DNA of 64,000 nucleotides from Trypanosoma brucei (lineage: Eukaryota): the NCBI GenBank assembly GCA_000002445.1, contig CH464491.1, positions 2,816,001-2,880,000 of the forward strand. Direction: 5' to 3'. Of the stretch, positions 44,596-63,984 are shown one piece after another. Position numbers and translations under genes: made by a program. Position 1 is the stretch's first letter. Each line of letters opens with the position of its first letter. The notes under the pieces were generated by a model, which did not search any database, was not told the DNA's origin, and saw nothing but the letters and a program-made list of their open reading frames with translations.

Positions 44596-46204
44596 AAGCG
44601 GCAATCGTTGCATCCACATATTTTTCTCTTTGTTAGGTGTAGGTTGTTTCACTGTTGCTGTTGGTGTTGGTGTTGGTGTTGGTGTCTCTTCCTCCCTTCT
44701 TCGCAGTGATGGCTGTCCGATAATTTCCGCTCTCATTACTGTAAAGAAGTGGGTTTCTGCATCTGCATATATATATATATATATAAAAGGGCGGCAGAAA
44801 GAGCTAAGCGGAAAGGCATCACATACCTTTCTTTAAGGGGGGAGGGGGCTCACGCGAATGTTGGCAAGCAGGAGATACGTGTGAAAAAGAGCACACAGCT
44901 ACGTTTATACATGTATATTTATATAAATATGTGTTGCTTACATGCACAAAAGTGTACGGATTGAATTGCAGGAATAGCCGCGAAGGTAGGATTTAGGTGC
45001 GCGCCGGCCTCTAGAAACGGGAATTAGAGACGTTTCTTTTTTTTTTCAGTGAACAACGGTAAGGAACACGAATAAGATGCTCGCACGATGCGTGTGTGCT
45101 CGTGCGTCTAAATGCGTATGTATGCATATTTAACTGTGTAGCGTCGAAAGGAATGAAGAAAAAGGTAACGTGGGGCGAAGGTAAGAAAGTAATAATACCA
45201 CACTTTTATTCTTCCTCGATTTTGATGTCGTTGGTGTGCTTTGTTTGTTTGTTTGTCTTTTTTTTTTCTGTTGTTTGTTTGTTTTCCCATCTTAACTTTC
45301 TGACTTCACCAAATGGGGCCCACGTACGCTCCGCGACCAGACTTTCTTTTTTTTTTCTTTAGAGTTCGTTTAGGGCAGCGGTGGCGCCTCTTCATTTTTT
45401 TTTCTCCTCTTGTATTATTATTTTCCTTTTGTTTTCCTTGTCTGTGTGTTTTGTTTTTGTTTTATCTTTTTGGATTCATTCACTTGTTTCTCATTTCAGT
45501 TGTGCTTTGGTGGCGCCCACATCCACTGCAGGACGAGATGAGATGAATCATTAAAGTGAAAATGGTGAGGATTCGAGGAAAGGAGTTATAATAATAATAA
45601 TAATTGTTGTTATTATTATATTCCCAATGTTATTATTAATATTATTATTATTATTGTCATAATTATTATTGATGTTGTTTCCGGTTCAGGAAAAGGTAGC
45701 AATGAAAGGGATGTGAAAGAATGGTAGTAGAAGAGTGCTTCAGCTTGTTTTGTTTTGTTTTCTTTTCTTTTCTTTTTTTTTTTTGCTGTTTGCTCTCAAT
45801 ATATAATAGAGAGGGGAGGGGAGGGAAAAAAAAAAGAGGTAAAGAGGGAGGAACAACGAAAGAAAAAGGAATAACAAAATAAGGTGAGCAATTAATGAAC
45901 CACGGAATGAAGCAAAAAATAAAAAAACAAAGAAGTGAAAAGTGAAAAGGAAAGAAAAAGAAAAAATGACGTTCACGAAATTATTTACTCCATTGAGTGG
46001 GTCACATGATATATAAATGGATAAATGAAAAAGAGAGAAGTAAGGCGTAGCGATCAGCACATGCCTTCGTAGAGGTGCTGTGTTATATTAATTTATTCCC
46101 GCACAGCTCCACACAAGAACGGAGAGAAAAATGAAAAGAAAGGAAGTAGATAATAAAGAGGAAAAAGAAAATATTAATTTTGTGGTAAAAATAAATAAAT
46201 AAAT

Positions 46205-46207
<3 letters not shown>

Positions 46208-46246
<39 letters not shown>
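46208..46246. repeat. (TA)n microsatellite
   Basis: About 19 TA units inside the long ORF-free region. Confidence 0.95.
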
Positions 46247-46250
<4 letters not shown>

Positions 46251-46636
46251 TATAATTAAATAGAGGTGGGATCGGGGGGAAGAACAAAATGAATAAATTC
46301 CCAAAACATTTTCTTTTATTTACAATACTGCACTGCACAAATTTACAAAAATTATATATGTATTGATGTATATTTAATTATTCGCATCTGCAAGCAAAAA
46401 AAAAAATCACAATAAAGTGAAGAAGAAGAAGAAAAGTGGGCCAGGAAAAAAAGAAAAAGAAAAGAAAAGAAGGGTGGGAGAAACTGATGCCCATTTATTG
46501 TTGGAAATGTAGAAAGTAGAAAAGGACAAAGAAAAAAAAAAGGTAATATACATGTGTTTATATTTATATATGTCTTTAGGTACATTTTCTTTTCGCCCAC
46601 TTGTGTTCTTCCTTTCTTTCTTTATTTGCTGTGTTA

Positions 46637-46658
46637 TGTGTGTGTGTGTGTGTGTGTG
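46637..46658. repeat. (GT)n microsatellite
   Basis: GT run followed by (TTG)n. Confidence 0.9.
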
Positions 46659-46920
46659 ATTGTTGTGTTGTTGTTTGTTGTTGTTGTTTTTCCGGTTTCA
46701 CACTTATGCGTTTCCTGTCCCCTCCACTCAGTCCCTTTTTTTTCTGTGCGGTAACAAAAAAAAAAGAATAATGATTAAATAGTAAACAAATACAAAAAAG
46801 AAAAAAAAAGAAAGAAACTTACAATTGAGCAAAGACAAAAAAAACAAAAAATGGGGGATGCCAGTGAAAGGAGGTGGAAACTGAGAAATGAAACGAAAAA
46901 GAATTTGTTTTTTTTTTCAA

Positions 46921-46949
46921 TAACTAACTAATTAATTAATTAATTAATT
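46921..46949. repeat. (TTAA/TAAC)n simple repeat
   Basis: 'taactaactaattaattaattaattaatt'. Confidence 0.9.
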
Positions 46950-48009
46950 TTTTTTATTTGCTTTCGTGTAATAACGGAAGAGAAAGGAAACAAACAAAAA
47001 AAGAATGAGTTAATCAATCAATCACACACACATGCACACACATACACGCGGAAAAAGGGAAAGAAAGAGGGGGGAAAATGTGGAAATAATAATAATTTGT
47101 GATGATGACGACAATTACTATTGTTTATTACTAAAATCAACAACAACACGATGAACTAATGGATGAATGAATGGATGAATGAATGAAAAAGGAAAAAGAA
47201 AATGAAGGCGTGAGGAAAACACGTAACGGACAGAAATGTAATCGGAACCCACGAGTGAAGGTTTTGGGAAAGGAAAAAAAAATGAAAAAAATAAATAAAT
47301 TAGCACAAAAGGGGGGAAACGGAGATCACAAAAAAACTTATCATTTCTGTTTTTTTGTCATGTCACCAAAACACGAAGCGTGAGGAAATATTAACTCCTC
47401 TTTTTTTTCCCCCCTCCACCCCTTTTCTCTTTTGTGCATATGTGTTATATTATTTATTAATTCATTTACTGTTCCTCCTCTTCCTGTTTTATTCTACACA
47501 TTGTGCTCGTCCGTGTGTACTCTCGTCAACAGCTCACATCCACCATTTTCATCACCAGCCGGTTTCCTTTTTTTTTTTCCTTATCCCTTCGGTTCTTTTT
47601 GCTTGGTTTTATCTTTATTCCATTTTTTTTGTTTTGTTTTGTTTTCTTTTAGAGCAGCTCACCTGGACGCGTCTTCCAGTTTTCATTTATTCCTTTTAAA
47701 TCCCTTCGCCTTTTTTTTTGCTCGATTTTGTCCGTACTGAATTGAACTAGATTTTGCATTAATCCGTTGCTAAGATGAAAAAACAAAACAAAACGAAATA
47801 AGGAAGTGGATGTGATAGGGGAAAGGGGGAAAGGGGATCCAACGAGACGCGCATGGCAGCCGTAAACACAATTGAAGGGAGGTTGAATGGATAATAAATA
47901 ATAATAAAAAAAAGAAAGGAAGAAAGGAAGGAAGGAAAGGAAGTGCAAGTATAAGTGAGTGGGTGGGGAGAGGAAGGGAAAAAGAAAAAGAAAAAGGAAC
48001 AGTGAGGAT

Positions 48010-48024
<15 letters not shown>

Positions 48025-48042
<18 letters not shown>

Positions 48043-48079
48043 TGTGCGTGCGTGCGTGTGTGTGTGTGTGTGTGTGTGT
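48025..48079. repeat. compound (TA)n-(GTGC)n-(GT)n microsatellite
   Basis: 'atatatatatatatatatgtgcgtgcgtgcgtgtgtgtgtgtgtgtgtgtgt'. Confidence 0.95.
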
Positions 48080-49893
48080 TTGCGTAATAAACGCATGTCT
48101 CACCCAATTCGTTTCTTTTTTCTTTTTTTATATCCTTTTCTTACAATCTACGCGTAACACATGCCAAGGTGTTCATATACTCATTCATGTATTTACTCTT
48201 ATTTATATTGATTCGTTTATATGACCCACTCCAGCACTCCTTTCATCCTTTGAGTTTAACACGCTGCTCTTTGGAGTTCACCCTTTCTCTCTCCCCCCCC
48301 CCTCCCCCTCCCACACACTCACACACACCTTCTTTTTTTTTTAAATTTGCGTGTGTGGTTTCCTTTTATTTTCCTATATATATAAATAAATAATATCTTT
48401 GTTGACAATAACAGTCGGTGGGGTAGGTTTCCCGTTTTGTTCGGTATGAGAGGCGCCGCTGTAATGTCTGTTGCGCATTCTCTTTCTTTCTCTCTCATTT
48501 GCTCTCGCAACCACCAGGCTTTGTCGTCATTGTTGTATTTTTAGTTTAGTTTAGTTCTACGACGCTTTTTTTTTTCTGGTTTTTGTTTCATTACTGCACT
48601 CTGATATGTGTGCATTCGTATATGCGTGTAATGTTCGATACCGGACGCTGTTGATTTAAAGTGTATTTGTTATTTTTTTTTCTTTTAAAAAACCTGTAAT
48701 GTTCCTGGCACTTCCCGCATCCTAATGCCCTAACCCTGCCAATGATAGAATGTTGGCGGCAAGGTGTAGGGGAATGAAGAAATAAAGAAAAGGGAGAAGA
48801 AGAAGGAAAAGAAAAGAAAAGGAAAAGGAATAGAGGTCTACGGGGAAGGGAAAACACTCATATGTATATAAATAAACACAAACGAATATATTCATATTTA
48901 TTTACATGAAGGTGTATAGAGAGGGCTTTGGTCTGATCATTTGGAAGAAATGAATGAAAAGACGTTTTGAGAGGTATCCTTCTCCCTTTTCTTTTTTCGT
49001 TTAATTTCTTCTTCATAATTCTGTCGGCGTTCTCTCCTTCTCTTTTTTTCCGGTTCCTAACGCAGATACGCGCCATAATGAAACTGAATTAGCATCGGCT
49101 GCACATAAGGAACAACGGTGAAAGGAGGCGAGTAAGAATGAGTGAATGAGAAAGCAGAATGGAGGCGTTGTCACGCGGATCTGTGTAGACCTCATTCTTT
49201 CCTTTCTTTTGTTTTGTGTTTGTTTGTTGTTGGTGATGATGTGGTGACGTTCTGCTCCCTTTCGTTTGTTTCATCACCTGTTTTTGTCACGGTCACTTTC
49301 TCTCTCTTTTTTTTTTGCTTTTGGAAGACACCACCGCCAAATCACGCCGCAAATATGGCAGTTTTGTATCGAAAACACCCGGGCGCGAGAGAATGTAGAA
49401 CCCCTTCCCCACAGTAGGAATGAATTTGCAATATGTGGAAGAAGAAAATTTTCCTCGAAAGAGGAAGAGATATTGAGTAAAAGAATGCAGAGAGAAGGAG
49501 AGATAGAGGGAGAAAAGCGAAAAAGAAAAAGAAAAGGGCAGCTTCAGCCGGTCAATAACACTTTCGCACACCGCCACAAACCCACAAGCGCAGCACATAC
49601 ACGTGGCTTCAAGTATGTATAGGAAATGCGTGTGACGCTATTTTACAGTTGAAGCCCCGGGTGAGCGGCGGGGGAGGTATTTTCATCCTCTCCCTCTGCT
49701 GTTTTCTTTTTCATTTTTTCCTGTTATCTTTGCTTGTGCTTTACTATTTATAAACCCTCTATTACTTGACTCACCACCTATACTTCTACAGCAGTTGCCT
49801 CTGTTGTTGCCGTCGGTGGGCCCGCATACAGAAGAAACGCACTCGCCAACCGCAGTGTCAATCTCCTCACCATCTGTTGTTTGCCTTCCAGGC

Positions 49894-49927
<34 letters not shown>
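49894..49927. repeat. compound (TA)n-(GT)n microsatellite
   Basis: 'atatatatatatatatatatgtgtgtgtgtgtgt', about 150 nt upstream of the J-domain gene. Confidence 0.95.
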
Positions 49928-50078
49928 ATCAATACCCGTACGCATGTGCATTTGTGCACCGTTTAGATGTTACCTTTACCTCATTCCTTTTACTTCTGTT
50001 GGGTTGCCTTGCCTCATCCTCACTCTTTAGCGGGGCGGCTACTGAAGCAGAGGGTACCGTAGTACATATCATAGCCGA

Positions 50079-51558: not shown

Positions 51559-54500
51559 ATGAGTGCACAGTTCAAAAAAGAAAATATTAAAGGGGAGGAA
51601 GGGGAGGGAAGGAAGGGAAAACCATTGCACAAGATGGCTCCCGGTGGCTGCGATGCGATCTTGCAGGAGGCGCTATTGTTGGGTTCATATGCTGATTTCT
51701 GGAAACTTGCCACCGGTTATACAAAGGCGCTATGCAATGTATACGTCGCCCCAAACCCCTATCCAACTCCTGGTGGAGGAAATGCAGCCGATGGACACAA
51801 CCCGAACTCAGCTACCCAAAATATGGTAAAAGTGACGACGACGGTACCTTGTAGCCTTAGGACCTTTGCCACGTTCATCACAGCGCCACGAAGCGTGCGA
51901 TACTGCGAGGACAACGTCATGTTTTGCGATATCATTGAAAGAGATAACAAGACAAAGTTGTTTCACACCGCATACGCAGGCGATCCTCCATGTGATGTGG
52001 TTGCCGTGCATATAACGGCGGCGTACAAAGTGCCGGAGAACACCACCGAAAACAATCCCTTGTGCAAGTTTGTGGCAAGCCTTCGTGACGATAAACGCCG
52101 GGGCCACGTGCCACAACCCTCGTCAACGATATTCGTTTACGCTATGAAGAGTGCTGAGCACCCCAAGACACCTCCTTCGCCGCCGTACGTGCGTATGCGC
52201 TTTCACTTATCTGCCTTTATCGCCTATGAAATACCAGGGCCACTCGTTCGAGTGGTGTTCGTTCACGCACCAGGAGATCGTACTCCAAAGATGGTTGACC
52301 GGTGCATAACAAAAATGGTCTGTGTGCGGAACTTATGCCAAATGCTTGAGTGGCTTAACACAGGTGGCCCTCTCACGGAACCTGTCATCTGGGAGAATCA
52401 GCGGCCACAAGAAACGCCAAATGCACACTCCGTTGGGGCCGAAAACACACGCGAGCCCAATCCTCTCGTTGAGGAGCCATCAGATGTAGTGTTACAAGGG
52501 GACAACCCATCCTCTGCTCCAGGCCGTGTATTTCAAACATTGTTTGCCCTGCATGCTTCAGCCGCGTGGCGTTTGGTCCTTCAACATGAAGGATGCACGG
52601 TGGAGGAATGCGAAGCACGATGTTGCTTTCCTGCACCGGCTTTTCTAAAGGCTTACCGTTTCGCGACAACTATCGCATGTTCTCTGGATATTTTCCGCCG
52701 ATTAGTGAGCGACCCGATGCAGTTGCACAGGTACGACCCGAGTGTAGAGAAAGTAGAGCTCCTCCACTCACAAAAGGGTGAGGATACCGTTCACATACAT
52801 TTCAAGCAACTGTCTCATTCTGCTCCCAAGCAGGATGCCTGCATTCTAACATCTAACGCACTCTTGCAACCCGACGAGGCACACCGATGGCGTTTATACC
52901 AGCTGACAGACAACATAAATGTTGTTTACGTGCAGAATGGTATTCAAAGCACTGAAATTCCTGCTGCTGGCGCGTGCGACCGACAGGTAGTGTATGCAAT
53001 GGGATACGTCGCCATCCCATCAGTGAAGCGACAACCCACGGGAGCTGGGGATGGCAATGAAGGCAGTGAGGCGCTGCGGGTCTACCATGTCGTCTGCGTG
53101 GACAACAACACTGCTTCATTCGCGGATAAGCAGCTTGTGACTATTCGTCAGCATTTTTTCCGCCTTACTGGAATACGAAATTTGTGCGATGAAGCGAAGA
53201 GCAAACCTCCTACCTGTTCTTTACCTCCTCACACAACTCGGGATGTTAATGATTTCTTCGAGAGCGGTACGTTAGCAGGATTTACAGAGGTGGAAACGCT
53301 TGAAGACGCCTCCCTTGAAAGAACAAGCAGCACGAATAATGTACGTAGACAGCTCGATTTAGTCGATGGGATGGAAGGCTACACCAGCCACGCGACTGCG
53401 CATGTGGACACCATGATGAACTCTTCTTCATTGGAGAAGCTTCACCAGTTTCTCTTGCACTTTGCACCCCATTATTGTATAGAGCACAAACAAAGTGAGC
53501 TCGACAACAAACTTGTTCCAGCAGCTGCTGCACTGCAACCCTCACCATTCACCGAGCAACAGCAAATATCCCCTTCAGTTTGGCAAGCACACGCGCCAAC
53601 ACCCGATCAGCAGAAACAGGAAGTGCAAACTGCTCAACTGGTGCAGCGTGGAAAAGTAAGTGCACCTCCAGCTATTCAGCAGAGTGGAGGAAAGGCAGCT
53701 TTGACATGGGACACCAGTGTGGAAGAGGTAGTGCCTGACAAGCAGAAACAGGAAGTGCAAACTGCTCAACTGGTGCAGCGTGGAAAAGTAAGTGCACCTC
53801 CAGCTATTCAGCAGATTGGAGGAAAGGCAGCTTTGACATGGGACACCAGTGTGGAAGAGGTAGTGCCTGACAAGCAGAAACAGGAAGTGCAAACTGCTCA
53901 ACTGGTGCAGCGTGGAAAAGTAAGTGCACCTCCAGCTATTCAGCAGATTGGAGGAAAGGCAGCTTTGACATGGGACACCAGTGTGGAAGAGGTAGTGCCT
54001 GACAAGCAGAAACAGGAAGTGCAAACTGCTCAACTGGTGCAATGTGGAAAAGTAAGTGCACCTCCAGCTATTCAGCAGATTGGAGGAAAGGCAGCTTTGA
54101 CATGGGACACCAGTGTGGAAGAGGTAGTGCCTGACAAGCAGAAACAGGAAGTGCAAACTGCTCAACTGGTGCAACGTGGAAAAGTAAGTGCACCTCCAGC
54201 TATTCAGCAGAGTGGAGGAAAGGCAGCTTTGACATGGGACACCAGTGTGGAAGAGGTAGTGCCTGACAAGCAGAAACAGGAAGTGCAAACTGCTCAACTG
54301 GTGCAACGTGGAAAAGTAAGTGCACCTCCAGCTATTCAGCAGAGTGGAGGAAAGGCAGCTTTGACATGGGACACCAGTGTGGAAGAGGTAGTGCCTGACA
54401 AGCAGAAACAGGAAGTGCAAACTGCTCAACTGGTGCAACGTGGAAAAGTAAGTGCACCTCCAGCTATTCAGCAGATTGGAGGAAAGGCAGCTTTGACATG

Positions 54501-57500
54501 GGACACCAGTGTGGAAGAGGTAGTGCCTGACAAGCAGAAACAGGAAGTGCAAACTGCTCAACTGGTGCAGCGTGGAAAAGTAAGTGCACCTCCAGCTATT
54601 CAGCAGATTGGAGGAAAGGCAGCTTTGACATGGGACACCAGTGTGGAAGAGGTAGTGCCTGACAAGCAGAAACAGGAAGTGCAAACTGCTCAACTGGTGC
54701 AGCGTGGAAAAGTAAGTGCACCTCCAGCTATTCAGCAGATTGGAGGAAAGGCAGCTTTGACATGGGACACCAGTGTGGAAGAGGTAGTGCCTGACAAGCA
54801 GAAACAGGAAGTGCAAACTGCTCAACTGGTGCAACGTGGAAAAGTAAGTGCACCTCCAGCTATTCAGCAGATTGGAGGAAAGGCAGCTTTGACATGGGAC
54901 ACCAGTGTGGAAGAGGTAGTGCCTGACAAGCAGAAACAGGAAGTGCAAACTGCTCAACTGGTGCAACGTGGAAAAGTAAGTGCACCTCCAGCTATTCAGC
55001 AGAGTGGAGGAAAGGCAGCTTTGACATGGGACACCAGTGTGGAAGAGGTAGTGCCTGACAAGCAGAAACAGGAAGTGCAAACTGCTCAACTGGTGCAACG
55101 TGGAAAAGTAAGTGCACCTCCAGCTATTCAGCAGAGTGGAGGAAAGGCAGCTTTGACATGGGACACCAGTGTGGAAGAGGTAGTGCCTGACAAGCAGAAA
55201 CAGGAAGTGCAAACTGCTCAACTGGTGCAACGTGGAAAAGTAAGTGCACCTCCAGCTATTCAGCAGAGTGGAGGAAAGGCAGCTTTGACATGGGACACCA
55301 GTGTGGAAGAGGTAGTGCCTGACAAGCAGAAACAGGAAGTGCAAACTGCTCAACTGGTGCAATGTGGAAAAGTAAGTGCACCTCCAGCTATTCAGCAGAG
55401 TGGAGGAAAGGCAGCTTTGACATGGGACACCAGTGTGGAAGAGGTAGTGCCTGACAAGCAGAAACAGGAAGTGCAAACTGCTCAACTGGTGCAATGTGGA
55501 AAAGTAAGTGCACCTCCAGCTATTCAGCAGAGTGGAGGAAAGGCAGCTTTGACATGGGACACCAGTGTGGAAGAGGTAGTGCCTGACAAGCAGAAACAGG
55601 AAGTGCAAACTGCTCAACTGGTGCAATGTGGAAAAGTAAGTGCACCTCCAGCTATTCAGCAGATTGGAGGAAAGGCAGCTTTGACATGGGACACCAGTGT
55701 GGAAGAGGTAGTGCCTGACAAGCAGAAACAGGAAGTGCAAACTGCTCAACTGGTGCAACGTGGAAAAGTAAGTGCACCTCCAGCTATTCAGCAGAGTGGA
55801 GGAAAGGCAGCTTTGACATGGGACACCAGTGTGGAAGAGGTAGTGCCTGACAAGCAGAAACAGGAAGTGCAAACTGCTCAACTGGTGCAACGTGGAAAAG
55901 TAAGTGCACCTCCAGCTATTCAGCAGAGTGAAAAAGGGGCTATCGACAGAAAAGAAAAGAACGTTCATATGAAGAATTTTATGCAGGCGATTCACACTGA
56001 AGGCGAGCCCGTTCATAGGAGAAGAGATGATGAAAGACTGGGGTTGCAACCATTACAGAGAAAGAAAGGTTTCCAATCCATCCCAACCAATCTTGAAGAG
56101 GAAGCATCCCCAGTACAGGTGATCGGTGAAGAATCAAAACGCAATAGTGGGGAACCGCAACCAGTTGGGGGGCAAGGGGATTGCTTGGCGCGAGCAGTGC
56201 GGGAGGGACAGGAGAAATTAACACGACTTACGGGGGGTTGGTGTAAAGGACGCATAGAGAAAACTTCTGCTTTCGGAGAAAAAGATAGCCCCGTACAAGA
56301 AGTTCAGGTAAAGGAGAATATCCCGCAAGTAACCTGTGGCTTGAGTGTGTGGCCCACGCCAGATGCATTGAAAGTTAGGAGGGAAGGAATGAGCGTCTTG
56401 AAATTGTCACAGCGGCTGGAGCTTCGCCCCGCTCGGCAGGAACCACGGCGGCAGGAAGAGTTGATATGGCCCATGAAGGGAGGATGGCAAGGATCTTCGG
56501 GTTCAGTAAGTGATGGGAATGAAGGATTGTTATTGCCGATGGGATCGCGGTCTGTGGATACAGATGACGTATGGGAAGAGCGCGTTAAATTATCTGACGG
56601 AACGTTCGGCCGGAAGGTGAACAACAAAATTCAGGTAAACGTCCGGGCGTGTCGTAACATGCCAGCGGCAACGCAAAAAAAACATATGCTGTCTATTCAG
56701 ATCAGCACATCTTCTACGGAGGCGCAAACATGGTTGGTACCTCTGACCCTCAATCCCATCTTCCCCCATCAAACAATTTTACTGGACGAACCAGAAGATG
56801 ACACGGTCAACGTTACAGCGATAGTAAAAACTGAAGATGATCGCATGAAGCGACTGGGGGAAGCAGTTGTTTCGCTGCGCTATTTGCATGTGTTAGATTC
56901 GTATACCCGCTGGATTTCGCTGATATGTAATGTAGGCACAAGCGATGCTTTCGAATGTGGTGACGTTTGCATTACTTTCCGTCGCGGTACAGAAGAAGGA
57001 CCCAATGGTGTCGTCTCAATTAATGGAAAGCAATGCGAACAGCAGCAACTGCAGTGGGGGGAAGCCGAAAGGACACAAGAAGAGGAGAAACTGCGGCGTT
57101 ATGTCCGTGATGTGCTTGTATCCGCGGGGAATGCAAACCTCCACTTGTTGGAGTGGTTAGTAGGGAACTGCTACCGTAAAACACCAGGGGAAATAGATGC
57201 GTTTATTAGGCGGTATAGGAAAGATGATACAATAATGCTAACTGTGTTTGAGGTGTGCGGACTTAGAACGGAAGTCGGGGTCCCACTACTGCGTCCGGTG
57301 CCTTGCCACGTTTTGGTTGAAACAAGCAGAGGATCGTGTACAACATCCCCCGTAAACCTTCAAGGACAAGCAGCTCCGCTGAACATGGTGTTTCACCTGG
57401 TAATAGGGGTGAACGAACCCATTCGTCTCATCGTATTTACCGGCGACACCGCGGTTGGTGAAACGGTTATTACCACTGCCCAAGATGGCACGCGCACTCG

Positions 57501-60030
57501 CGTGTTGGTTTCGCGGGCCGGCACGGAGGAAGCGGTACCTTGTGGTACGATCACTGTAGGTACGAGGCGCGGTAGCGTATCTGAATTGACTGAAAGCCCC
57601 AAACCACTTCGAGTGGAAGTAAATGAAGAGAACAGCAAGCGCATGGCGTACCTACACCACATATTATGGATGAACGCCCGAAGCTCACTTCACAAGCTGG
57701 ATGTAATTGCCGCTTCCCCACTGGAGTCGGGCCGTCTACTGGAAAAGTTTGGACCGACAGCGAAGTGGTACGATCTTCGAGTTTCCTTGAGGCACTGGAG
57801 GCCCACATCTGCTGCGTGGGATAGCCCAATAGTTGACAATACACTTGGCACTCACAAGAGAGAAAAAGACGGCGATGAGTTGCTGCAACATGTACAAACG
57901 GTATACCGCAGGGTATTCGCTGTGGTTCACATTGGGTTGCAGTACCATAAAACTTTTGAGGTCCGTACCGACTGTGCTGGTGAAGTGCACTTCAATGAAA
58001 CCTTCACTTTCAGTGGTGTTTGCCCTCGGCGGGATGAGGTTTTTGTGTCTGTCATCGGGAAGGGTCTCACTGGCACCGAGGATCATGATCTGGGAGTAAC
58101 CGTCCTTTCCATGAAATCACTGAAGTTACAACAGCGAACCCACATGACTGTTCCGTTGGTGCGCCAAGCGGGAACTCGTGGTGCTCGCTTCCAAGGATCA
58201 CTGTACTTGGAACTGTTTGCGGTTAACTTTGACGGTGTTGCCGCTAACGACTACGAGGCAGAAATGTGTCGGCCTTCTATTCGGAGCATTCTTTACCACC
58301 ACGCACCTAGAGAGTTGCATAAGGCAGAGTGCTTCCTTGGTAGCTACGCAAGCCGTGAAAAGGACTGCCTACGAGAGCTACGAAAAACCTATGGGCCGGA
58401 CATTCTCAAACTACCCATGGCGATACGGCTAATGAGCCTGAACCAACTGACACCTTATCCTAACAGTTACTTGAAAGTGTACCTCAATGATACCCCAGTG
58501 ATACGCACTGAGAAGCTATCCACCGATGATCCTATTTTATTCGACCCAGAAGACAGCAAAAGTAGGGCAAGGGTACTCGTTGATGATGTCTATGACGTTA
58601 GGTTACGGTTCAAGGTGAAGCAAACGCGATTTTTACTAACAAAGACTCTTTGCACGGGTGATTTTTCCTTACGAGGTATGGTGGTATCGCAGGAGGGCGT
58701 ATACTGGATCCCTTTGGTTGACAGTGAGGGTGTGAGTGTCGGGAATCTCTGTGTTGAACTGAAGTCAAGTGCTTTTGTCTACAATGATACTGTGAAAAGG
58801 GCTAAAGATTTTGTGGAGGACGACGTCGTGTCGTTAATTCGGAGGTACAGACCGTCTAAGGTGCCCATCATGCATATGATAATGGAAAAAGTCTCAAATC
58901 GGGAGGCAGCCCACTCCGAAATCAGAAGGGAGGTCGTTACCGAACCGGTTGCAGCTACAGTGTTTATATCTGTAGAACTCCTTTCCATTCATCGTGTGTT
59001 TTTCGAGCAAACCGAGGAAGACGATCAGCAGGTGTGGCCAGAAGGTGAGACGGAATATGTTGTGACAGCAAAATACGGTGGCGATGAAAGTAGTACTACA
59101 ACCAAAAACTTCACACCACAAGGGAACAGCAGCACCATTCGCCTAGACGTGCGCACCTTTCGCGAACGGAAAGCACACAAGCTCATCATCACTGTCCGAC
59201 GTCAGCGCACCCTTCCACCGCCTTGCCCTGCGAAATCGTCGGAAGCGCAGAACGGCAAGATTCCGCGTTTTGGTCCATTTTGTAAAGCCACCCCTGTTGT
59301 GTCGAAGCAAAGGCCGCGTGTTATAATGCCCCAGCCTCCCTCCCTTTTACATGAACCTGAATATGTAGGTTGCGCAGTCATCTCTCTCCGTGCGCTTTTC
59401 ACCCCTTTGCTCTACAGCACCGGGGAGCTCGTGACGGTACCGCTGCTTTACCTTCCACCGAACGCGAATGGAGGGCCGGTTGTACCGGACGGCCGGGACC
59501 ATACCGGCAGTGGTGTACATTCTGAAGGGGAAGTTGTCGGAAACATTGCGTTCAGGGTGCGCCTTCCAGCGTATGAGCAGATCCCTTCATGGTTGCAATT
59601 CGACGCCACAACCCTCGAAAAAGAAATTAAGCTGGACCGAGCGGCCATTCGATACTATGAGGAGCGCATTCGCAATATTTTAGCTGAGCACAAATCACAC
59701 TGTTTGTGGAATATGCACTACAGATTGTATGAAAAATACGTTGCCAGTGGCCACTGGCATCGACTGCTGCGTGGCTGGAGAAATGCGTTGCTGCGGCAAT
59801 TCCCCTCAGCAAATAACAGCAACGACGTTCCAACATCTTCCATGTGGTACGCCCCCTCGACAGCATCCGATCGCGACTTGAGGAGCGATAATATGAACAG
59901 CATCTTGGAAAGACTGAAAGGAGAGTTTAGCAGTGACGACAGTTTGATGGGCGATGTCGCGGAAACAGAAATGGCAGGGGGAGAAAACTCGATAGAAACA
60001 GGAAGCGGGAGCGAAAGCGAAAGTGACTAA
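51559..60030 (+). CDS. giant repeat-containing protein (2823 aa) with 44-aa tandem repeats and multiple C2-like domains
   Basis: A single uninterrupted ORF. Its central part holds 17.6 copies of 'DKQKQEVQTAQLVQ(R/C)GKVSAPPAIQQ(S/I)GGKAALTWDTSVEEVVP'. C-terminal regions have C2-like beta-sandwich signatures, for example 'KIQVNVRACRNMP...DEPEDDTVNVTAIVKTEDD...RWISLI' and 'LKVYLNDTPVIRTEKL...DVRLRF'. The start codon is uncertain; a Met at 'MAPGGCDA' is an alternative. Confidence 0.7.
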   Translation: MSAQFKKENIKGEEGEGRKGKPLHKMAPGGCDAILQEALLLGSYADFWKLATGYTKALCNVYVAPNPYPTPGGGNAADGHNPNSATQNMVKVTTTVPCSLRTFATFITAPRSVRYCEDNVMFCDIIERDNKTKLFHTAYAGDPPCDVVAVHITAAYKVPENTTENNPLCKFVASLRDDKRRGHVPQPSSTIFVYAMKSAEHPKTPPSPPYVRMRFHLSAFIAYEIPGPLVRVVFVHAPGDRTPKMVDRCITKMVCVRNLCQMLEWLNTGGPLTEPVIWENQRPQETPNAHSVGAENTREPNPLVEEPSDVVLQGDNPSSAPGRVFQTLFALHASAAWRLVLQHEGCTVEECEARCCFPAPAFLKAYRFATTIACSLDIFRRLVSDPMQLHRYDPSVEKVELLHSQKGEDTVHIHFKQLSHSAPKQDACILTSNALLQPDEAHRWRLYQLTDNINVVYVQNGIQSTEIPAAGACDRQVVYAMGYVAIPSVKRQPTGAGDGNEGSEALRVYHVVCVDNNTASFADKQLVTIRQHFFRLTGIRNLCDEAKSKPPTCSLPPHTTRDVNDFFESGTLAGFTEVETLEDASLERTSSTNNVRRQLDLVDGMEGYTSHATAHVDTMMNSSSLEKLHQFLLHFAPHYCIEHKQSELDNKLVPAAAALQPSPFTEQQQISPSVWQAHAPTPDQQKQEVQTAQLVQRGKVSAPPAIQQSGGKAALTWDTSVEEVVPDKQKQEVQTAQLVQRGKVSAPPAIQQIGGKAALTWDTSVEEVVPDKQKQEVQTAQLVQRGKVSAPPAIQQIGGKAALTWDTSVEEVVPDKQKQEVQTAQLVQCGKVSAPPAIQQIGGKAALTWDTSVEEVVPDKQKQEVQTAQLVQRGKVSAPPAIQQSGGKAALTWDTSVEEVVPDKQKQEVQTAQLVQRGKVSAPPAIQQSGGKAALTWDTSVEEVVPDKQKQEVQTAQLVQRGKVSAPPAIQQIGGKAALTWDTSVEEVVPDKQKQEVQTAQLVQRGKVSAPPAIQQIGGKAALTWDTSVEEVVPDKQKQEVQTAQLVQRGKVSAPPAIQQIGGKAALTWDTSVEEVVPDKQKQEVQTAQLVQRGKVSAPPAIQQIGGKAALTWDTSVEEVVPDKQKQEVQTAQLVQRGKVSAPPAIQQSGGKAALTWDTSVEEVVPDKQKQEVQTAQLVQRGKVSAPPAIQQSGGKAALTWDTSVEEVVPDKQKQEVQTAQLVQRGKVSAPPAIQQSGGKAALTWDTSVEEVVPDKQKQEVQTAQLVQCGKVSAPPAIQQSGGKAALTWDTSVEEVVPDKQKQEVQTAQLVQCGKVSAPPAIQQSGGKAALTWDTSVEEVVPDKQKQEVQTAQLVQCGKVSAPPAIQQIGGKAALTWDTSVEEVVPDKQKQEVQTAQLVQRGKVSAPPAIQQSGGKAALTWDTSVEEVVPDKQKQEVQTAQLVQRGKVSAPPAIQQSEKGAIDRKEKNVHMKNFMQAIHTEGEPVHRRRDDERLGLQPLQRKKGFQSIPTNLEEEASPVQVIGEESKRNSGEPQPVGGQGDCLARAVREGQEKLTRLTGGWCKGRIEKTSAFGEKDSPVQEVQVKENIPQVTCGLSVWPTPDALKVRREGMSVLKLSQRLELRPARQEPRRQEELIWPMKGGWQGSSGSVSDGNEGLLLPMGSRSVDTDDVWEERVKLSDGTFGRKVNNKIQVNVRACRNMPAATQKKHMLSIQISTSSTEAQTWLVPLTLNPIFPHQTILLDEPEDDTVNVTAIVKTEDDRMKRLGEAVVSLRYLHVLDSYTRWISLICNVGTSDAFECGDVCITFRRGTEEGPNGVVSINGKQCEQQQLQWGEAERTQEEEKLRRYVRDVLVSAGNANLHLLEWLVGNCYRKTPGEIDAFIRRYRKDDTIMLTVFEVCGLRTEVGVPLLRPVPCHVLVETSRGSCTTSPVNLQGQAAPLNMVFHLVIGVNEPIRLIVFTGDTAVGETVITTAQDGTRTRVLVSRAGTEEAVPCGTITVGTRRGSVSELTESPKPLRVEVNEENSKRMAYLHHILWMNARSSLHKLDVIAASPLESGRLLEKFGPTAKWYDLRVSLRHWRPTSAAWDSPIVDNTLGTHKREKDGDELLQHVQTVYRRVFAVVHIGLQYHKTFEVRTDCAGEVHFNETFTFSGVCPRRDEVFVSVIGKGLTGTEDHDLGVTVLSMKSLKLQQRTHMTVPLVRQAGTRGARFQGSLYLELFAVNFDGVAANDYEAEMCRPSIRSILYHHAPRELHKAECFLGSYASREKDCLRELRKTYGPDILKLPMAIRLMSLNQLTPYPNSYLKVYLNDTPVIRTEKLSTDDPILFDPEDSKSRARVLVDDVYDVRLRFKVKQTRFLLTKTLCTGDFSLRGMVVSQEGVYWIPLVDSEGVSVGNLCVELKSSAFVYNDTVKRAKDFVEDDVVSLIRRYRPSKVPIMHMIMEKVSNREAAHSEIRREVVTEPVAATVFISVELLSIHRVFFEQTEEDDQQVWPEGETEYVVTAKYGGDESSTTTKNFTPQGNSSTIRLDVRTFRERKAHKLIITVRRQRTLPPPCPAKSSEAQNGKIPRFGPFCKATPVVSKQRPRVIMPQPPSLLHEPEYVGCAVISLRALFTPLLYSTGELVTVPLLYLPPNANGGPVVPDGRDHTGSGVHSEGEVVGNIAFRVRLPAYEQIPSWLQFDATTLEKEIKLDRAAIRYYEERIRNILAEHKSHCLWNMHYRLYEKYVASGHWHRLLRGWRNALLRQFPSANNSNDVPTSSMWYAPSTASDRDLRSDNMNSILERLKGEFSSDDSLMGDVAETEMAGGENSIETGSGSESESD
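53608..55930 (+). repeat. 132-bp in-frame tandem repeat array (~17.6 units) inside giant CDS
   Basis: Units are identical except at three nucleotide positions: cag/caa, cgt/tgt and agt/att. A mirrored 824-aa artefact ORF appears on the minus strand across the array. Confidence 0.95.
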
Positions 60031-60602: not shown

Positions 60603-62555
60603 ATGCGCAGGTGCCTTATTTTGCCTGTTTTGACTACAGCGAGCAAAAGCAGCTTTGCTTCGTGCCGCCACAGCAGCAGCGGTGATGGAAGAAATGGCGG
60701 TCTCGGCAGCAGCGCTAGCAGCAGCGCTACCACCATAAGAGAAAGCATGAAGTCGGCAGGATTTAACTTTAACACCCCCAACTTCTGCCTTGAGGGCGCG
60801 ACTGAGTCAGATGTTGCCGACACGGCAGGTGAACTTATCACAAGCCCAGTGACTTCCCTCAACTTCGTGCGTGACATGTACGGCCCGTGGTTGGTGCTGA
60901 CGGAGGAAATACAGGGTGAATTGTTCATTGACCACGACAAGATGGTGTACCTCCGCCCTGCAAACGGCCTTGGATTCGGTGTTGGTCGCATAGACACTGG
61001 AGAGCCGTGTTCGTCAGGCACAGCCTTTCTCATGAGCCTAGAATGGTACACATATCCGGCAACAACGTCAATGCCCCCAAATAACGCCTGTAAAACCGAA
61101 GTCACTGGCGTGGTGAAACATGTACACTCATCTTCCATGGATTACAGCACATTCACCCTAGTCGCCTCGTGGCGAAGCAGCAGCGGCACTAGTGGGAAAT
61201 TCAACGCGGCAAAACTCTCGCCTTGGGACCCAGTGGGAGGCGTGAAGCGCTGGACACCTAACGGTGACCTAATGCAAGTATTCCATCAGGTATTCCCCAC
61301 CCCACTGAGGCTAACCTCTCATATCAAACGGGCGACAGCAGCCCGTCAAGTGGGAAGCCGGTCTGGTGGTTTAGGCGAAGGGGAATTGGGTTCGTCCCCG
61401 CACCACTTATCGTTAGAACAGTATCGCGTCGGAGAACTACCCGACTTGTACTACATTCCCAACTATATTTCAGAGGAAGAGGAACAGGAAATGATGGAAG
61501 CTGTTCGTAGCACACCACGCGAACTGAAAACGCAGCTTACCAAGCGCACTGTACAAGAATGGGGTTGCAGTATGTGCGAGACATGCAATAAGAGCTTCGT
61601 ATCCGATCGTAACATGCCCCCTTGGGTGGAGGCTTGTACCGACATGCAGGTGTACGATGGTATCTTCACACCCTCCGTGTTCCCTAACAGTGTACGAGTG
61701 CATGAATACCACCCACACGAGGGCATCGCCCCGCATTGCGATGGTCCCATTTATGTACCGCGCGTGTCGGTGCTTTCGCTTGGCACTCCGTGCGTGATGT
61801 TTTTCTACTCCCGCCGTGAGCCTTACTCCGAGCCAATGGAACACTACAACGATACTTTCCGCTTCAAAGAGGGTATCGCCAAAGAATCACCGATTCAATC
61901 GGTGGTGTTAGAGCCCCGCTCCCTTTTGGTGTTTGCCGGTGATGTCTTTCACTACTATCCACACGGAACCTGCGACAGGAAAATAGTCCCCTTAACAACG
62001 GAGGTGGCGGGTCGGGTAGTGAATAGACATCTTCTTCAGGATCCAGACATAAAGGAAGTGCACAAAGGTTTCCGCGTGAGTGTCACTACGCGCAATCTCC
62101 TTCCACGGTGCAACCACCAGCCGGAACGGACTGAGTACGGGATGAAACGCGCATGGTTTATTTACAACCAACTGCCCGTGCCGCAGCAGCTGTTCACTTC
62201 ACCGCCTTTGGCTCCGGATGCTAAGACTGGAAATGCGGGGGGTGAAGAGAAAGCGAAGCCATTTGACGCTTCAGCAGGAAAATCAGCAGCAGGAAGTGCA
62301 CACCCGGGCACTGATGAGAATATGGCAAATATCGAAAAGAAGTTGGACCAGTTACTCAAACAGCAAAACGCGTTGTCACAGCAGTTGGACGAAGTGCGGC
62401 AACTAATAGCGGGAGATGCAGGTTTCCGTCACGAGGTATCGACTGTGTTGGGTCATCTCACCTCAACTGTCCTGCAGATAGAAAGCAAGTTGGAAGAGTT
62501 GGAGGATAATCGCGCACGTGAGATGGGCGAAACCGGCGGCCAGCCAACTGCGTAA
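60603..62555 (+). CDS. AlkB-family 2OG-Fe(II) dioxygenase (ALKBH6-like) with N-terminal extension and C-terminal coiled coil
   Basis: 'LPDLYYIPNYISEEEEQEMMEAV' parallels ALKBH6 'PGLFYVPDFISKEEEEYLL'. 'VHEYHPHEGIAPHCDGPIYVPRVSVLSLGTPCVMFFY' parallels ALKBH6 '[37 protein letters not shown]' (HxD...H iron triad). 'LEPRSLLVFAGDVFHYYPHG' is also conserved. Confidence 0.75.
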   Translation: MRRCLILPVLTTASKSSFASCRHSSSGDGRNGGLGSSASSSATTIRESMKSAGFNFNTPNFCLEGATESDVADTAGELITSPVTSLNFVRDMYGPWLVLTEEIQGELFIDHDKMVYLRPANGLGFGVGRIDTGEPCSSGTAFLMSLEWYTYPATTSMPPNNACKTEVTGVVKHVHSSSMDYSTFTLVASWRSSSGTSGKFNAAKLSPWDPVGGVKRWTPNGDLMQVFHQVFPTPLRLTSHIKRATAARQVGSRSGGLGEGELGSSPHHLSLEQYRVGELPDLYYIPNYISEEEEQEMMEAVRSTPRELKTQLTKRTVQEWGCSMCETCNKSFVSDRNMPPWVEACTDMQVYDGIFTPSVFPNSVRVHEYHPHEGIAPHCDGPIYVPRVSVLSLGTPCVMFFYSRREPYSEPMEHYNDTFRFKEGIAKESPIQSVVLEPRSLLVFAGDVFHYYPHGTCDRKIVPLTTEVAGRVVNRHLLQDPDIKEVHKGFRVSVTTRNLLPRCNHQPERTEYGMKRAWFIYNQLPVPQQLFTSPPLAPDAKTGNAGGEEKAKPFDASAGKSAAGSAHPGTDENMANIEKKLDQLLKQQNALSQQLDEVRQLIAGDAGFRHEVSTVLGHLTSTVLQIESKLEELEDNRAREMGETGGQPTA

Positions 62556-63201
62556 AGAACAGGGGTAGGGTGCTCCAAAAAAAAAAAAGGCAAAAAGGGC
62601 ACCCATTTGGTGTGCAACTTGGTTGTTTCTGTTTTTTCTTCCTTTGGTGCAGAGTGAGGGCAGACAGCACAGTAGGCTATTTGGTTTGTTTCCATCGCTT
62701 GTTGGAATGCTACGCAGAGCGCGAGGTTGATGGTATTTTTCGGGGGTTCCCATTTATCTTCGGGTAGTCACGGGCCCCAATTATGTGTGTGGTGCATTTG
62801 CATACACATGTATTGGGAAAGTTTGGTAGCGACATGAACGTATCGGAGCGACGCATCGGTTTTGTGCAAAAGAAATGAGGCAAAGCCACGGCGTGGGGAA
62901 GGCACATAGGAATTATCTCTTTATGATTTTATTTCTTACCATTATCATAAATGCTTTCCACTTTCGCTGCCCATCTCTCACACACACACTCTCTTCAGGG
63001 GAGGTTGTATATACGTGAGGCATTAATACCCTCCACCTCCTGCCCCGGGGCTTTCCTCTGCTTCGACGTGTTTGGTGCATTGTCGTTTGCTCATCTGGGT
63101 TCTTTTTAAAAAAAAAACGGGATGCACATGTTCATAGTAGTAGCGGCGCCCACCTCCGCCTTCATTTGGTGAGAAAGTGGCGCTTTGCACTCAAGCAGGG
63201 A

Positions 63202-63984
63202 ATGGAAAATGATGTGGATGAAGAGGTTCGATTGCTATTGGCCGTGTTCCCTGACGAAGTAAAGAGGGATCCTGGTCATGCAGGGACCCTCATCGTTTCA
63301 CTGCCGTTCCGCTTTGAATTGCAAATAACACTCCCCCCGCATGGGTACCCTTCCACATCGCCTCCGTCATTGTTCGTCGCGTCTGGACCAAACGTAACTC
63401 TCATTAGTGAATACTCTTCCCAACTCTTGCGGCTCGTGCGGGAGGAGATTCCGCTCGGTGGGCCGATGCTCCTTCATATTGTAACACTTGCCCAAAACCT
63501 CGCCACCGAGCTTCAAGTGACGCGCGAAGCGCAGCGACAGGCAAAAGAGGAACAGCAGGCGAAACATAAGCTTGAAGCCGCGGCGAAGGAAGAGGAACTG
63601 CAGGTTACAGCAGTGGAAGTGTGGAGCAGTGATCCCATCACCGACCGGAAGTCCAAGTTTGTGGCGCACATGGCACGAGTAAACTCTGAGGCAGGTGTAC
63701 AGGAGGTGGTGCAGCATCTGCGGCGGCAGAAGCACATCGCGGAAGCTACGCACCCCACCATTTACGCCTACCGGTTCACTGACACTGCTGGAGTCTTGCA
63801 TGCCGATTGCAATGACGATGGTGAAACGGGGGCGGCGTCGCGGATTATGTTTCTGTTGGAGCAGAAGAAAGTGGACGGATACGTGGTGGTGGTGACACGC
63901 TGGTTTGGTGGTATATTATTGGGACCCGACCGGTTCAAACACATCATGGAGGTGGTGCACAATATTCTCTTGACAATGCCGTAA
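63202..63984 (+). CDS. IMPACT-family protein (RWD domain + Impact/UPF0029 domain)
   Basis: An N-terminal RWD-like region begins 'MENDVDEEVRLLLAVFPDEV'. The C-terminal 'ITDRKSKFVAHMARVNSEAGVQEVVQHLRRQKHIAEATHPTIYAYRF' matches the Impact_N/YigZ signature (compare 'DRGSRFQAH...KIASATHNIYAYRI'). Met at 63202 was preferred over the ORF-track start at 63166. Confidence 0.7.
   Translation: MENDVDEEVRLLLAVFPDEVKRDPGHAGTLIVSLPFRFELQITLPPHGYPSTSPPSLFVASGPNVTLISEYSSQLLRLVREEIPLGGPMLLHIVTLAQNLATELQVTREAQRQAKEEQQAKHKLEAAAKEEELQVTAVEVWSSDPITDRKSKFVAHMARVNSEAGVQEVVQHLRRQKHIAEATHPTIYAYRFTDTAGVLHADCNDDGETGAASRIMFLLEQKKVDGYVVVVTRWFGGILLGPDRFKHIMEVVHNILLTMP

What the first reader, a model, noticed from the sequence alone, without database searches (positions are those of the whole stretch)
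56600..58780. C-terminal half of the giant repeat protein contains several C2-like domains
Downstream of the repeat array are at least three segments with C2 beta-sandwich patterns of alternating hydrophobic strands. They are 'IQVNVRACRNMP...DEPEDDTVNVTAIVKTEDD...RWISLI', 'VHFNETFTFSGVCP...VSVIGKGL...LGVTVLSMKSLKL' and 'LKVYLNDTPVIRTEKLSTDDPILFDPED...DVRLRFKV'. Multi-C2 proteins in flagellates are typically membrane–cytoskeleton tethers, for example at the flagellar attachment zone or ciliary transition zone. A repeat array combined with multiple C2 domains is an unusual architecture.
Basis: inference. Interest (0 to 1): 0.5.

Follow-up and report, generated by a model that had tools for sequence, protein, structure and literature searches.

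The report
Five C2 domains with helical spacers
The C-terminal 1,100 residues of this 2,823-residue Trypanosoma brucei protein are a chain of four clear C2 domains and a fifth probable one, each followed by a small three-helix bundle; the C2 domains lack the usual calcium-binding residues, public databases already call the protein 'C2 domain-containing', and its function is untested.

Summary
All eight quoted peptides are in ORF 51559..60030 (+) at the stated places, and each of the three segments lies inside a real C2 domain.

- **Identity:** the ORF is identical to T. brucei TREU927 XP_829160.1 / UniProt Q383I3, already named 'C2 domain-containing protein'.
  - There are five beta-sandwich modules, not three. 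They are aa 1690-1809, 1890-2004, 2071-2221, 2286-2403 and 2466-2668. The fifth is divergent and less certain.
  - Each module is followed by a 45-60 aa three-helix bundle with no Pfam or PDB-sequence match.
  - The canonical Ca2+-binding aspartates are absent.
  - No transmembrane segment was found.
- **Conservation:** the ten-element order is kept in most full-length members of a small family of 45 cluster representatives. Every named member is a trypanosomatid.
- **Variable parts:** the repeat array and the N-terminal domain are lineage-specific additions.
- **Function:** most likely a Ca2+-independent multivalent scaffold or tether. This is inferred, not shown.

Interest is modest: a new member of a known kind.

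The parts
51559..60030 (+). Whole ORF, 2823 aa. It is T. brucei TREU927 XP_829160.1 / EAN80048.1 / UniProt Q383I3, 'C2 domain-containing protein'.
   Evidence: ORF list and translation. 100% identity and full coverage to P0048.
51634..53409 (+). N-terminal domain, seen only in Trypanosoma orthologues (aa 26-617). It consists of two homologous alpha/beta halves (about aa 46-270 and 335-552). UniProt's automatic naming calls fragments of it 'START'. That was not reproduced here.
   Evidence: Orthologue alignment with many invariant columns starting at M26. hhalign between the two halves gives 94.1% probability. START label seen. Negative results: Pfam, PDB sequence profiles, AlphaFold2 pLDDT 28.8.
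53609..55930 (+). Tandem array of 132 nt (44 aa) x 17.6 copies at 99% identity. It lies between the N-terminal domain and the C2 region, separated from the first C2 module by a further ~230-residue non-repetitive spacer (aa ~1458-1689).
   Evidence: Tandem Repeats Finder. 17 copies here against 8 in T. b. gambiense, a related 34-aa unit in T. congolense, and no room for such an array between the N-terminal domain and the first C2 module in the 1749-aa T. cruzi orthologue.
56626..56985 (+). C2 module 1 (aa 1690-1809).
   Evidence: Pfam C2 19.6 bits, E 1e-3, over the full profile length. About eight strands, pLDDT 73-89. hhalign to modules 2, 3 and 4 gives 95-98%.
57040..57216 (+). Three-helix spacer 1 (aa 1828-1886).
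   Evidence: Three helices in the model. hhalign to spacers 2 and 3 gives 94-96%. No Pfam or PDB sequence match for the spacer profile.
57226..57570 (+). C2 module 2 (aa 1890-2004).
   Evidence: About eight strands, pLDDT about 80-89. hhalign to module 1 gives 97.6% and to module 3 gives 96.8%. Three of five orthologous segments hit Pfam C2 at 25-27 bits.
57625..57750 (+). Three-helix spacer 2 (aa 2023-2064).
57769..58221 (+). C2 module 3 (aa 2071-2221), with a disordered insertion at aa 2084-2114.
   Evidence: Pfam C2 20.3 bits, E 7e-4. Model. hhalign to module 1 gives 98%.
58249..58392 (+). Three-helix spacer 3 (aa 2231-2278).
   Evidence: The homologue P0034 carries three copies of this motif and nothing else.
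58414..58767 (+). C2 module 4 (aa 2286-2403).
   Evidence: No Pfam hit for the T. brucei sequence itself. Five of five orthologous segments hit C2. The profile against PDB sequences returns only C2 domains, best E 9e-4. hhalign to module 1 gives 95%, and 98.4-98.7% with larger alignments.
58801..58935 (+). Three-helix spacer 4 (aa 2415-2459).
   Evidence: hhalign to spacer 3 gives 80%.
58954..59562 (+). Module 5 (aa 2466-2668). A divergent beta-sandwich, probably C2, with low-confidence stretches of the model that include aa 2553-2598 and 2635-2655.
   Evidence: About eight strands, with lower and patchy pLDDT. hhalign to module 3 gives only 88.7% with larger alignments. No Pfam or PDB sequence hit.
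59638..59799 (+). Three-helix spacer 5 (aa 2694-2747). Together with the second half of module 5 it is one of the most widely detected parts of the family.
   Evidence: hhalign to spacer 3 gives 85%. Many homologues match only aa 2600-2750.
59815..60027 (+). Disordered acidic, Ser-rich C-terminal tail (aa 2753-2823). No transmembrane anchor.
   Evidence: pLDDT about 30. Net charge -12 and no TM-like hydrophobic stretch anywhere in the protein.

Best explanation
The region encodes the conserved core of a trypanosomatid-specific multi-C2 protein.

**Shown:**
- There are five beta-sandwich modules. Four are demonstrably C2 and the fifth is probably C2.
- Each module is followed by a compact three-helix bundle, in the fixed order C2-1/3H-1 ... 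C2-5/3H-5.
- The protein ends in an acidic disordered tail.
- The Ca2+-ligand aspartates of synaptotagmin-type and PKC-type C2 domains are missing.
- There is no transmembrane segment.
- Each module has its own orthologue across the family.

**Inferred:**
- The protein acts as a Ca2+-independent, soluble or peripheral scaffold.
- The helical bundles hold the C2 domains apart as a beads-on-a-rod array.
- The C2 domains give multivalent, constitutive binding to a surface. That surface could be acidic membrane lipids or a protein lattice such as microtubules.
- In the T. brucei and T. congolense orthologues examined, the long tandem-repeat array acts as a flexible spacer. It links this binding platform to the duplicated N-terminal alpha/beta domain, seen only in Trypanosoma orthologues.
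- The whole protein would therefore tether two structures.

The confidence of 0.55 is for the whole statement. The shown part (at least four C2 domains with helical spacers, no Ca2+ ligands, no TM) I put at about 0.95. The inferred scaffold or tether role I put at about 0.4.
- **Spacer bundles:** three helices after every module in the model. The spacers are mutually homologous.
- **No Ca2+ ligands:** at the five Asp positions of Syt1 C2A and PKC-alpha C2, the T. brucei modules keep at most one Asp, and the orthologues behave likewise.
- **No TM, near-neutral modules:**
- **Conserved ten-element order:** seen in most full-length homologues.
- **Restricted distribution:** only 45 cluster representatives in an exhaustive HMMER scan of 1.84 billion proteins. 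All named ones are Trypanosomatidae.
- **Repeat array is dispensable and variable:**
- **Precedents:** C2 plus a repeat region in the cortical cytoskeleton protein WCB (paper title seen; the repeat region is from my own knowledge). A C2 protein bound directly to the tubulin lattice, Tetrahymena C2D1 (PDB 9nw3 chain 3A), is among the top structural hits.
Against: - No localisation, interaction or phenotype data were found, so the binding partner is unknown.
- pTM is 0.44, so the relative arrangement of the modules ('rod') is not established.
- The modules carry no net positive charge, which does not favour electrostatic lipid binding.
- Module 5 is not shown to be C2 by any sequence method.
Confidence: 0.55

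Rival explanations
1. It is a lipid-transfer tether at a membrane contact site. The duplicated N-terminal domain would be a START-like lipid-binding module, and the C2 array would dock on a target membrane. This would be functionally analogous to extended synaptotagmins (SMP plus C2 domains) or to Lam/GRAMD1 proteins.
For: - UniProt's automatic naming calls N-terminal fragments of the T. b. equiperdum and T. cruzi orthologues 'START domain-containing'.
- There is a faint Pfam hit to Polyketide_cyc2, a member of the START/Bet v 1 superfamily (E 0.19).
- Each N-terminal half is about 230 aa and ends in a long predicted helix (low confidence). The halves are homologous.
- E-Syt2 C2A-C2B and the T. 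brucei E-Syt C2B are among the structural hits.
Against: - START was not reproduced by any test here. Pfam gives nothing at E of 1 or below on the T. brucei sequence or on orthologues.
- Two PDB profile searches found no START or Bet v 1 protein.
- The AlphaFold2 model failed, with pLDDT 28.8.
- There is no membrane anchor to fix one end.
- The N-terminal domain is absent from paralogues and from all non-Trypanosoma family members, so it is not part of the conserved function of the C2 array.
Confidence: 0.15
2. It is a structural protein of the microtubule cytoskeleton, flagellum or basal body. Its C2 domains would bind tubulin or other proteins rather than membranes, as in CEP120, CFAP70 and Tetrahymena C2D1.
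- A further match to CFAP70 of the central apparatus.
- C2D1 sits on the outer tubulin surface.
- The modules are Ca2+-ligand-free and near neutral.
- Large repetitive proteins of T. brucei are often cytoskeletal (general knowledge; see the references listed).
Confidence: 0.25
3. It is a ferlin-like, Ca2+-triggered membrane fusion or repair protein.
For: The top Foldseek hits are otoferlin, myoferlin and dysferlin, aligned over about 1000-1600 columns (E down to 9e-21).
Against: - The Ca2+-ligand aspartates are absent from modules 1-4.
- There is no C-terminal transmembrane helix.
- No FerA, DysF or other ferlin-specific Pfam domain was hit.
- TM-scores are only about 0.1, so just the serial C2 content is shared.
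- No ferlin appears among the sequence homologues.
Confidence: 0.03
4. The beta-strand patterns are chance or belong to another beta-sandwich fold, such as Ig-like or jelly-roll.
For: The T. brucei sequences of modules 2, 4 and 5 have no Pfam hit of their own. Module 5 has no sequence support at all.
Against: For modules 1-4 every independent test returns C2. Non-C2 beta-sandwich hits in Foldseek (complement C3, leptin receptor) appear only at rank 40 and below, with probability about 0.6.
Confidence: 0.02

Closest known systems
Ferlins (otoferlin, myoferlin, dysferlin)
   Different: This protein has no C-terminal transmembrane anchor and no Ca2+-ligand aspartates. It has no FerA, FerB or DysF domain. 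Its spacers are uniform three-helix bundles. There is no sequence homology, and the global TM-score is about 0.1.
Extended synaptotagmins, including T. brucei E-Syt (PDB 7a1r)
   Different: This protein has no SMP domain and no N-terminal membrane hairpin. It has five modules with helical spacers, and it lacks Ca2+ ligands.
WCB, the C2-domain protein of the plasma membrane / subpellicular microtubule corset (Baines & Gull 2008, cited in PMC8625193 and PMC8168904)
   Same: A kinetoplastid protein combining C2 with an internal repetitive region (the repeats are from my own knowledge). It is a precedent for a membrane-cytoskeleton linking role.
   Different: From my own knowledge of the paper, WCB has a single N-terminal C2. 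It was not recovered among the 45 homologues of the C2 array. The paper itself was not read here; only its title was seen.
CEP120 and Tetrahymena C2D1 (ciliary and centriolar C2 proteins that bind microtubules)
   Different: No sequence relationship was found. The numbers and spacing of C2 domains differ. Nothing shows that this protein is on microtubules.

Membership tests
C2 domain (Pfam PF00168 / C2 fold) | A sequence match to the C2 profile above the curated threshold. | tested here: met
   The whole C-terminal half scores 31.8 bits against a cut-off of 22. This comes from two stretches of 19.6 and 20.3 bits, each just under the cut-off alone. Orthologous segments of modules 2 and 4 reach 22.4-27.4 bits.
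C2 domain (Pfam PF00168 / C2 fold) | An eight-stranded beta-sandwich that superposes on solved C2 domains. | tested here: met
C2 domain (Pfam PF00168 / C2 fold) | Each of the five modules is individually C2. | tested here: inconclusive
   Modules 1-4 are C2 by Pfam, orthologue Pfam hits, hhalign at 95-98% and a PDB profile search. Module 5 has only an 88.7% hhalign match to module 3 and the strand count in the model. It has no Pfam or PDB sequence hit.
Ca2+-binding C2 domains (synaptotagmin / PKC type) | Five conserved acidic ligands in loops 1 and 3. | tested here: not met
   In a MAFFT alignment to Syt1 C2A and PKC-alpha C2, the T. brucei modules keep at most one Asp at the five Asp-ligand positions, and the orthologues are the same.
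Ferlins | A C-terminal transmembrane helix. | tested here: not met
   The best 19-residue Kyte-Doolittle window scores 1.71 and lies in a predicted beta-strand. The C-terminus is acidic and disordered.
Ferlins | Ferlin-specific domains (FerA, FerB, FerI, DysF) and sequence homology to ferlins. | tested here: not met
   Pfam lists no such family at E up to 1-10. A phmmer search against PDB sequences gives nothing. All named homologues are trypanosomatid hypothetical or C2 proteins.
Extended synaptotagmins | An SMP lipid-transfer domain and an N-terminal membrane hairpin. | tested here: not met
   No SMP hit in Pfam. No hydrophobic hairpin.
START / Bet v 1-like lipid-binding domain (N-terminal region) | A sequence or structural match to the helix-grip fold. 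| tested here: inconclusive
   The only support is UniProt's automatic name on fragments and a faint Polyketide_cyc2 hit at E 0.19. Pfam START gives no hit. PDB profile searches give no hit. The AlphaFold2 model is unusable, with pLDDT 28.8.
Trypanosomatid five-module C2/three-helix family (defined here) | The colinear order C2-1/3H-1 ... C2-5/3H-5, with each element best matched by its own orthologous profile. | tested here: met
   Assigning regions to per-module HMMs recovers the same order in the window protein and in most full-length homologues. Some paralogues carry extra N-terminal modules.

The most novel reading that the evidence does not exclude
The ten-element array, five Ca2+-independent C2 domains each followed by an undescribed three-helix domain, may be a rigid kinetoplastid-specific binding platform of a new type. 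In Trypanosoma it would have been fused to a duplicated lipid-binding (START-like) domain through an expandable repeat spacer. That would make a soluble lipid-transfer tether with no counterpart in other eukaryotes.
Probability: 0.12. Interest if true: 0.55.

Novelty: new member of a known kind. Interest (0 to 1): 0.3.

Why it matters
Multi-C2 proteins organise membrane contact, fusion and cytoskeleton-membrane links. A trypanosomatid-only family with a strictly conserved five-module layout could mark a parasite-specific structure.

As it stands, the result refines the annotation of one uncharacterised T. brucei protein:
- five C2 modules instead of an unspecified 'C2 domain-containing';
- no Ca2+ sites;
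- a new helical spacer motif;
- clear domain boundaries for tagging and truncation.

It does not reveal a new kind of system. The C2 content was already in public databases.

Tried and rejected
**Sequence and profile searches**
1. A word-indexed protein search gave almost nothing. The C-terminal half returned 1 hit, the alignment A1 returned 3, and the N-terminal alignment returned 1. In the first two, only the 8000 candidates sharing most words were scored. The exhaustive HMMER scan was needed to find homologues.
2. A phmmer search of the C-terminal half against PDB sequences gave nothing.
3. A self-BLASTP of the C-terminal half found no internal repeats. Profile-profile comparison was required.
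4. The spacer motif has no Pfam or PDB sequence match.
5. The module 5 profile has no PDB match.

**N-terminal domain**
6. Pfam gave no significant hit (one faint Polyketide_cyc2 match, E 0.19). Two PDB profile searches gave nothing. AlphaFold2 with four sequences failed, pLDDT 28.8. No fold search was run on that model because it would be meaningless.

**Tools and look-ups that did not work**
7. The afdb50 fold library was unavailable.
8. The look-up of encoding contigs had no record for P0048 or P0004.

**Literature**
9. No paper mentioning this protein by accession or by architecture was found. The TriTrypDB gene ID could not be recovered. TrypTag and proteomic localisation therefore could not be checked.

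**Other**
10. Rfam on the whole window gave no hits.
11. The ferlin and E-Syt membership readings were considered and rejected because defining features were tested and not met.
Full report
**What is there**

The window is a one-strand gene array typical of a trypanosomatid chromosome. The finding lies in a single ORF, 51559..60030 on the + strand, 2823 aa. It is 100% identical over its full length to T. brucei brucei TREU927 XP_829160.1 / EAN80048.1 / UniProt Q383I3. UniProt names that entry 'C2 domain-containing protein', and it carries a precomputed PF00168 hit.

- segment 1 at aa 1691-1789;
- segment 2 at aa 2143-2190;
- segment 3 at aa 2305-2353.

They lie downstream of a 132-nt (44-aa) x 17.6 tandem array at nt 53609-55930.

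**Are the segments C2 domains?**

Pfam C2 scores 31.8 bits on the C-terminal half, against a cut-off of 22. This comes from two stretches over segments 1 and 2, at 19.6 and 20.3 bits. Segment 3 gives no Pfam hit in T. brucei.

An exhaustive HMMER scan of 1.84 billion cluster representatives found 45 homologues. From a nine-sequence alignment (the window protein and eight of these homologues) I cut out ten elements. Profile-profile comparison shows that four beta-rich modules are homologous to one another:
- M1 to M2: 97.6%
- M1 to M3: 98.0%
- M1 to M4: 95.0%
- M2 to M3: 96.8%

With larger alignments, M4 matches M1 and M3 at 98.4-98.7%.

Orthologous segments also hit Pfam C2 directly. For module 2, three of five did so, at 25-27 bits. 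An 18-sequence profile of module 4 returns only C2 domains from PDB sequences. All 20 hits at E up to 10 are C2, though only the best is significant (plant SYT1 C2A, E 9e-4).

**Structure**

The AlphaFold2 model of aa 1648-2823 used a nine-sequence alignment. Mean pLDDT is 68.4, with most domain blocks at 70-90, and pTM is 0.44. It shows five beta-sandwiches of about eight strands, each followed by three helices. In protein coordinates:

| Element | Residues | Note |
|---|---|---|
| C2-1 | 1690-1809 | |
| 3H-1 | 1828-1886 | |
| C2-2 | 1890-2004 | |
| 3H-2 | 2023-2064 | |
| C2-3 | 2071-2221 | disordered insertion 2084-2114 |
| 3H-3 | 2231-2278 | |
| C2-4 | 2286-2403 | |
| 3H-4 | 2415-2459 | |
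| C2-5 | 2466-2668 | low-confidence stretches incl. 2553-2598, 2635-2655 |
| 3H-5 | 2694-2747 | |
| tail | 2753-2823 | disordered, acidic |

Foldseek against the PDB gives 273 hits at E of 1e-3 or below. They are led by ferlins (otoferlin, E 9e-21), then E-Syt2 C2A-C2B, the cPLA2 C2 domain, the copine BON1, and the CEP120 and Itch C2 domains.

Both searches used the whole model, so individual hits cannot be assigned to modules. The low pTM means the relative arrangement of the modules is not established.

Module 5 is the weak point. It has no Pfam or PDB sequence hit and only an 88.7% hhalign match to module 3. I call it 'probably C2'.

1. There are five modules, not three.
2. The repeat unit is C2 plus a 45-60 aa three-helix bundle.
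   - The consensus is roughly R..v..lL..YaPeeLHRle.ll....g.Ee.l...L...YGpEp.
   - Spacers 1-3 are clearly homologous (90-96%). Spacers 4 and 5 match spacer 3 more weakly (80-85%).
   - A 32-sequence profile has no Pfam or PDB sequence match.
   - One homologue, P0034, is three copies of this motif alone.
3. Ca2+ sites are absent. Aligned to Syt1 C2A and PKC-alpha C2, the four clear modules keep at most one Asp at the five ligand positions. The orthologues behave the same way.
4. There is no transmembrane segment, and the modules are near neutral in net charge.

**Family and evolution**

Assigning each homologue's regions to per-module HMMs recovers the same order, M1-L1 through M5-L5, in most full-length members. 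Some paralogues carry two or three extra modules at the N-terminal side. So each module has its own orthologue, and the layout is old and fixed.

Every homologue that carries a name is a trypanosomatid: T. congolense, T. vivax, T. cruzi, T. conorhini (two adjacent paralogues), Leishmania, Leptomonas, Lotmaria, Angomonas and Phytomonas.

The N-terminal domain (aa 26-617) occurs only in the Trypanosoma orthologues. It consists of two homologous halves (hhalign 94.1%). UniProt's automatic naming calls fragments of it 'START'. I could not reproduce that:
- Pfam gives no significant hit; the only match is a faint one to Polyketide_cyc2 at E 0.19;
- two PDB profile searches give nothing;
- the AlphaFold2 model is unusable, with pLDDT 28.8.

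The repeat array is lineage-specific and unstable. There are 17 copies here against 8 in T. b. gambiense. T. congolense has a related 34-aa unit, and the 1749-aa T. cruzi orthologue leaves no room for such an array.

**Mechanism**

Shown: a soluble protein with four or five Ca2+-ligand-free C2 domains separated by uniform helical bundles.

Inferred, and the reading I commit to: a Ca2+-independent multivalent scaffold or tether. The C2 array would bind a surface constitutively. In T. brucei and T. congolense, the repeat array would space it from the N-terminal domain.

Which surface is open. The rivals are:
- **Cytoskeletal or flagellar lattice.** Precedents are CEP120, CFAP70 and Tetrahymena C2D1, which sits on the outer tubulin surface.
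- **Lipid-transfer tether.** This depends on the unverified START label.
- **Ferlin-like, Ca2+-triggered fusion.** This is rejected: no transmembrane helix, no Ca2+ ligands, no ferlin domains.

No localisation or phenotype data could be found. I could not recover the TriTrypDB identifier.

**Verdict**

The functional gloss is untested. The C2 content is already in public annotation. What is added here is the module count and boundaries, the undescribed helical spacer, the loss of Ca2+ sites, and the strictly conserved trypanosomatid-specific layout.

This is a new member of a known kind (multi-C2 proteins) and of modest interest.

Noticed in passing
window 57040-57216, 57625-57750, 58249-58392, 58801-58935, 59638-59799: A 45-60 aa three-helix motif follows every C2 module. 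Its consensus is roughly R..v..lL..YaPeeLHRle...g.Ee.l..L...YGpEp. It has no Pfam or PDB sequence match. One homologue (P0034, 227 aa) consists of three copies of it alone. It looks like an undescribed small domain.
   Followed up: partly
window 51634-53409 (aa 26-617): The N-terminal region is an internal duplication of an alpha/beta domain of about 230 aa (hhalign 94.1% between the halves). UniProt's automatic label calls fragments of it 'START', but Pfam, PDB profile searches and AlphaFold2 (pLDDT 28.8) could not confirm this.
   Followed up: partly
window 51559-51633: Orthologues from T. congolense and two more distant Trypanosoma orthologues, one of them T. cruzi, align only from Met26, which is an invariant column. 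The first 25 codons of the annotated ORF may therefore not be translated, and the real start may be nt 51634.
   Followed up: no
window 53609-55930: Repeat copy number is unstable. There are 17 full motif copies here against 8 in T. b. gambiense (2427 aa). T. congolense has a related 34-aa unit, and the 1749-aa T. cruzi orthologue leaves no room for such an array. In the T. b. equiperdum assembly the gene is split into two models (865 and 881 aa) at the array.
   Followed up: partly
window 53575-56049 (- strand): An 824-aa antisense ORF lies almost entirely inside the tandem array. It is most likely an artefact of the periodic sequence rather than a gene.
   Followed up: no
window ~18000-22000 and ~44600-50000: Two stretches have low GC (0.33-0.43) and no ORF of 200 aa or more on the coding strand, within an otherwise dense one-strand gene array. 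Rfam found nothing in them.
   Followed up: partly
window 1-51068 and 60603-63984: Pfam identifies the neighbouring genes as: SNF2-type helicase, MIF4G/MA3 protein, kinesin, VHS-domain protein, PUF protein, NOB1, a CFAP58 homologue, a divergent tubulin-family protein (489 aa), a DnaJ protein, a 2OG-Fe(II) oxygenase and an RWD+UPF0029 (IMPACT-like) protein. None is functionally linked to the C2 protein in any obvious way.
   Followed up: partly
window 56900-56970, 57500-57560, 58150-58210 (between the last two strands of C2-1, C2-2 and C2-3): A family-specific motif R.(A/P)GT..A..(C)G is conserved in modules 1-3 across all orthologues. It is not part of the generic C2 signature and may be an interface with the following helical bundle.
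   Followed up: no
homologues P0008 and P0014 (T. conorhini Tco025E_05766 and 05767): Two paralogues of the family, one with five modules and one with seven or eight, carry consecutive locus tags and lie on the same 19-kb T. conorhini contig, so they appear to be neighbours. No paralogue lies next to the T. brucei gene in this window.
   Followed up: no
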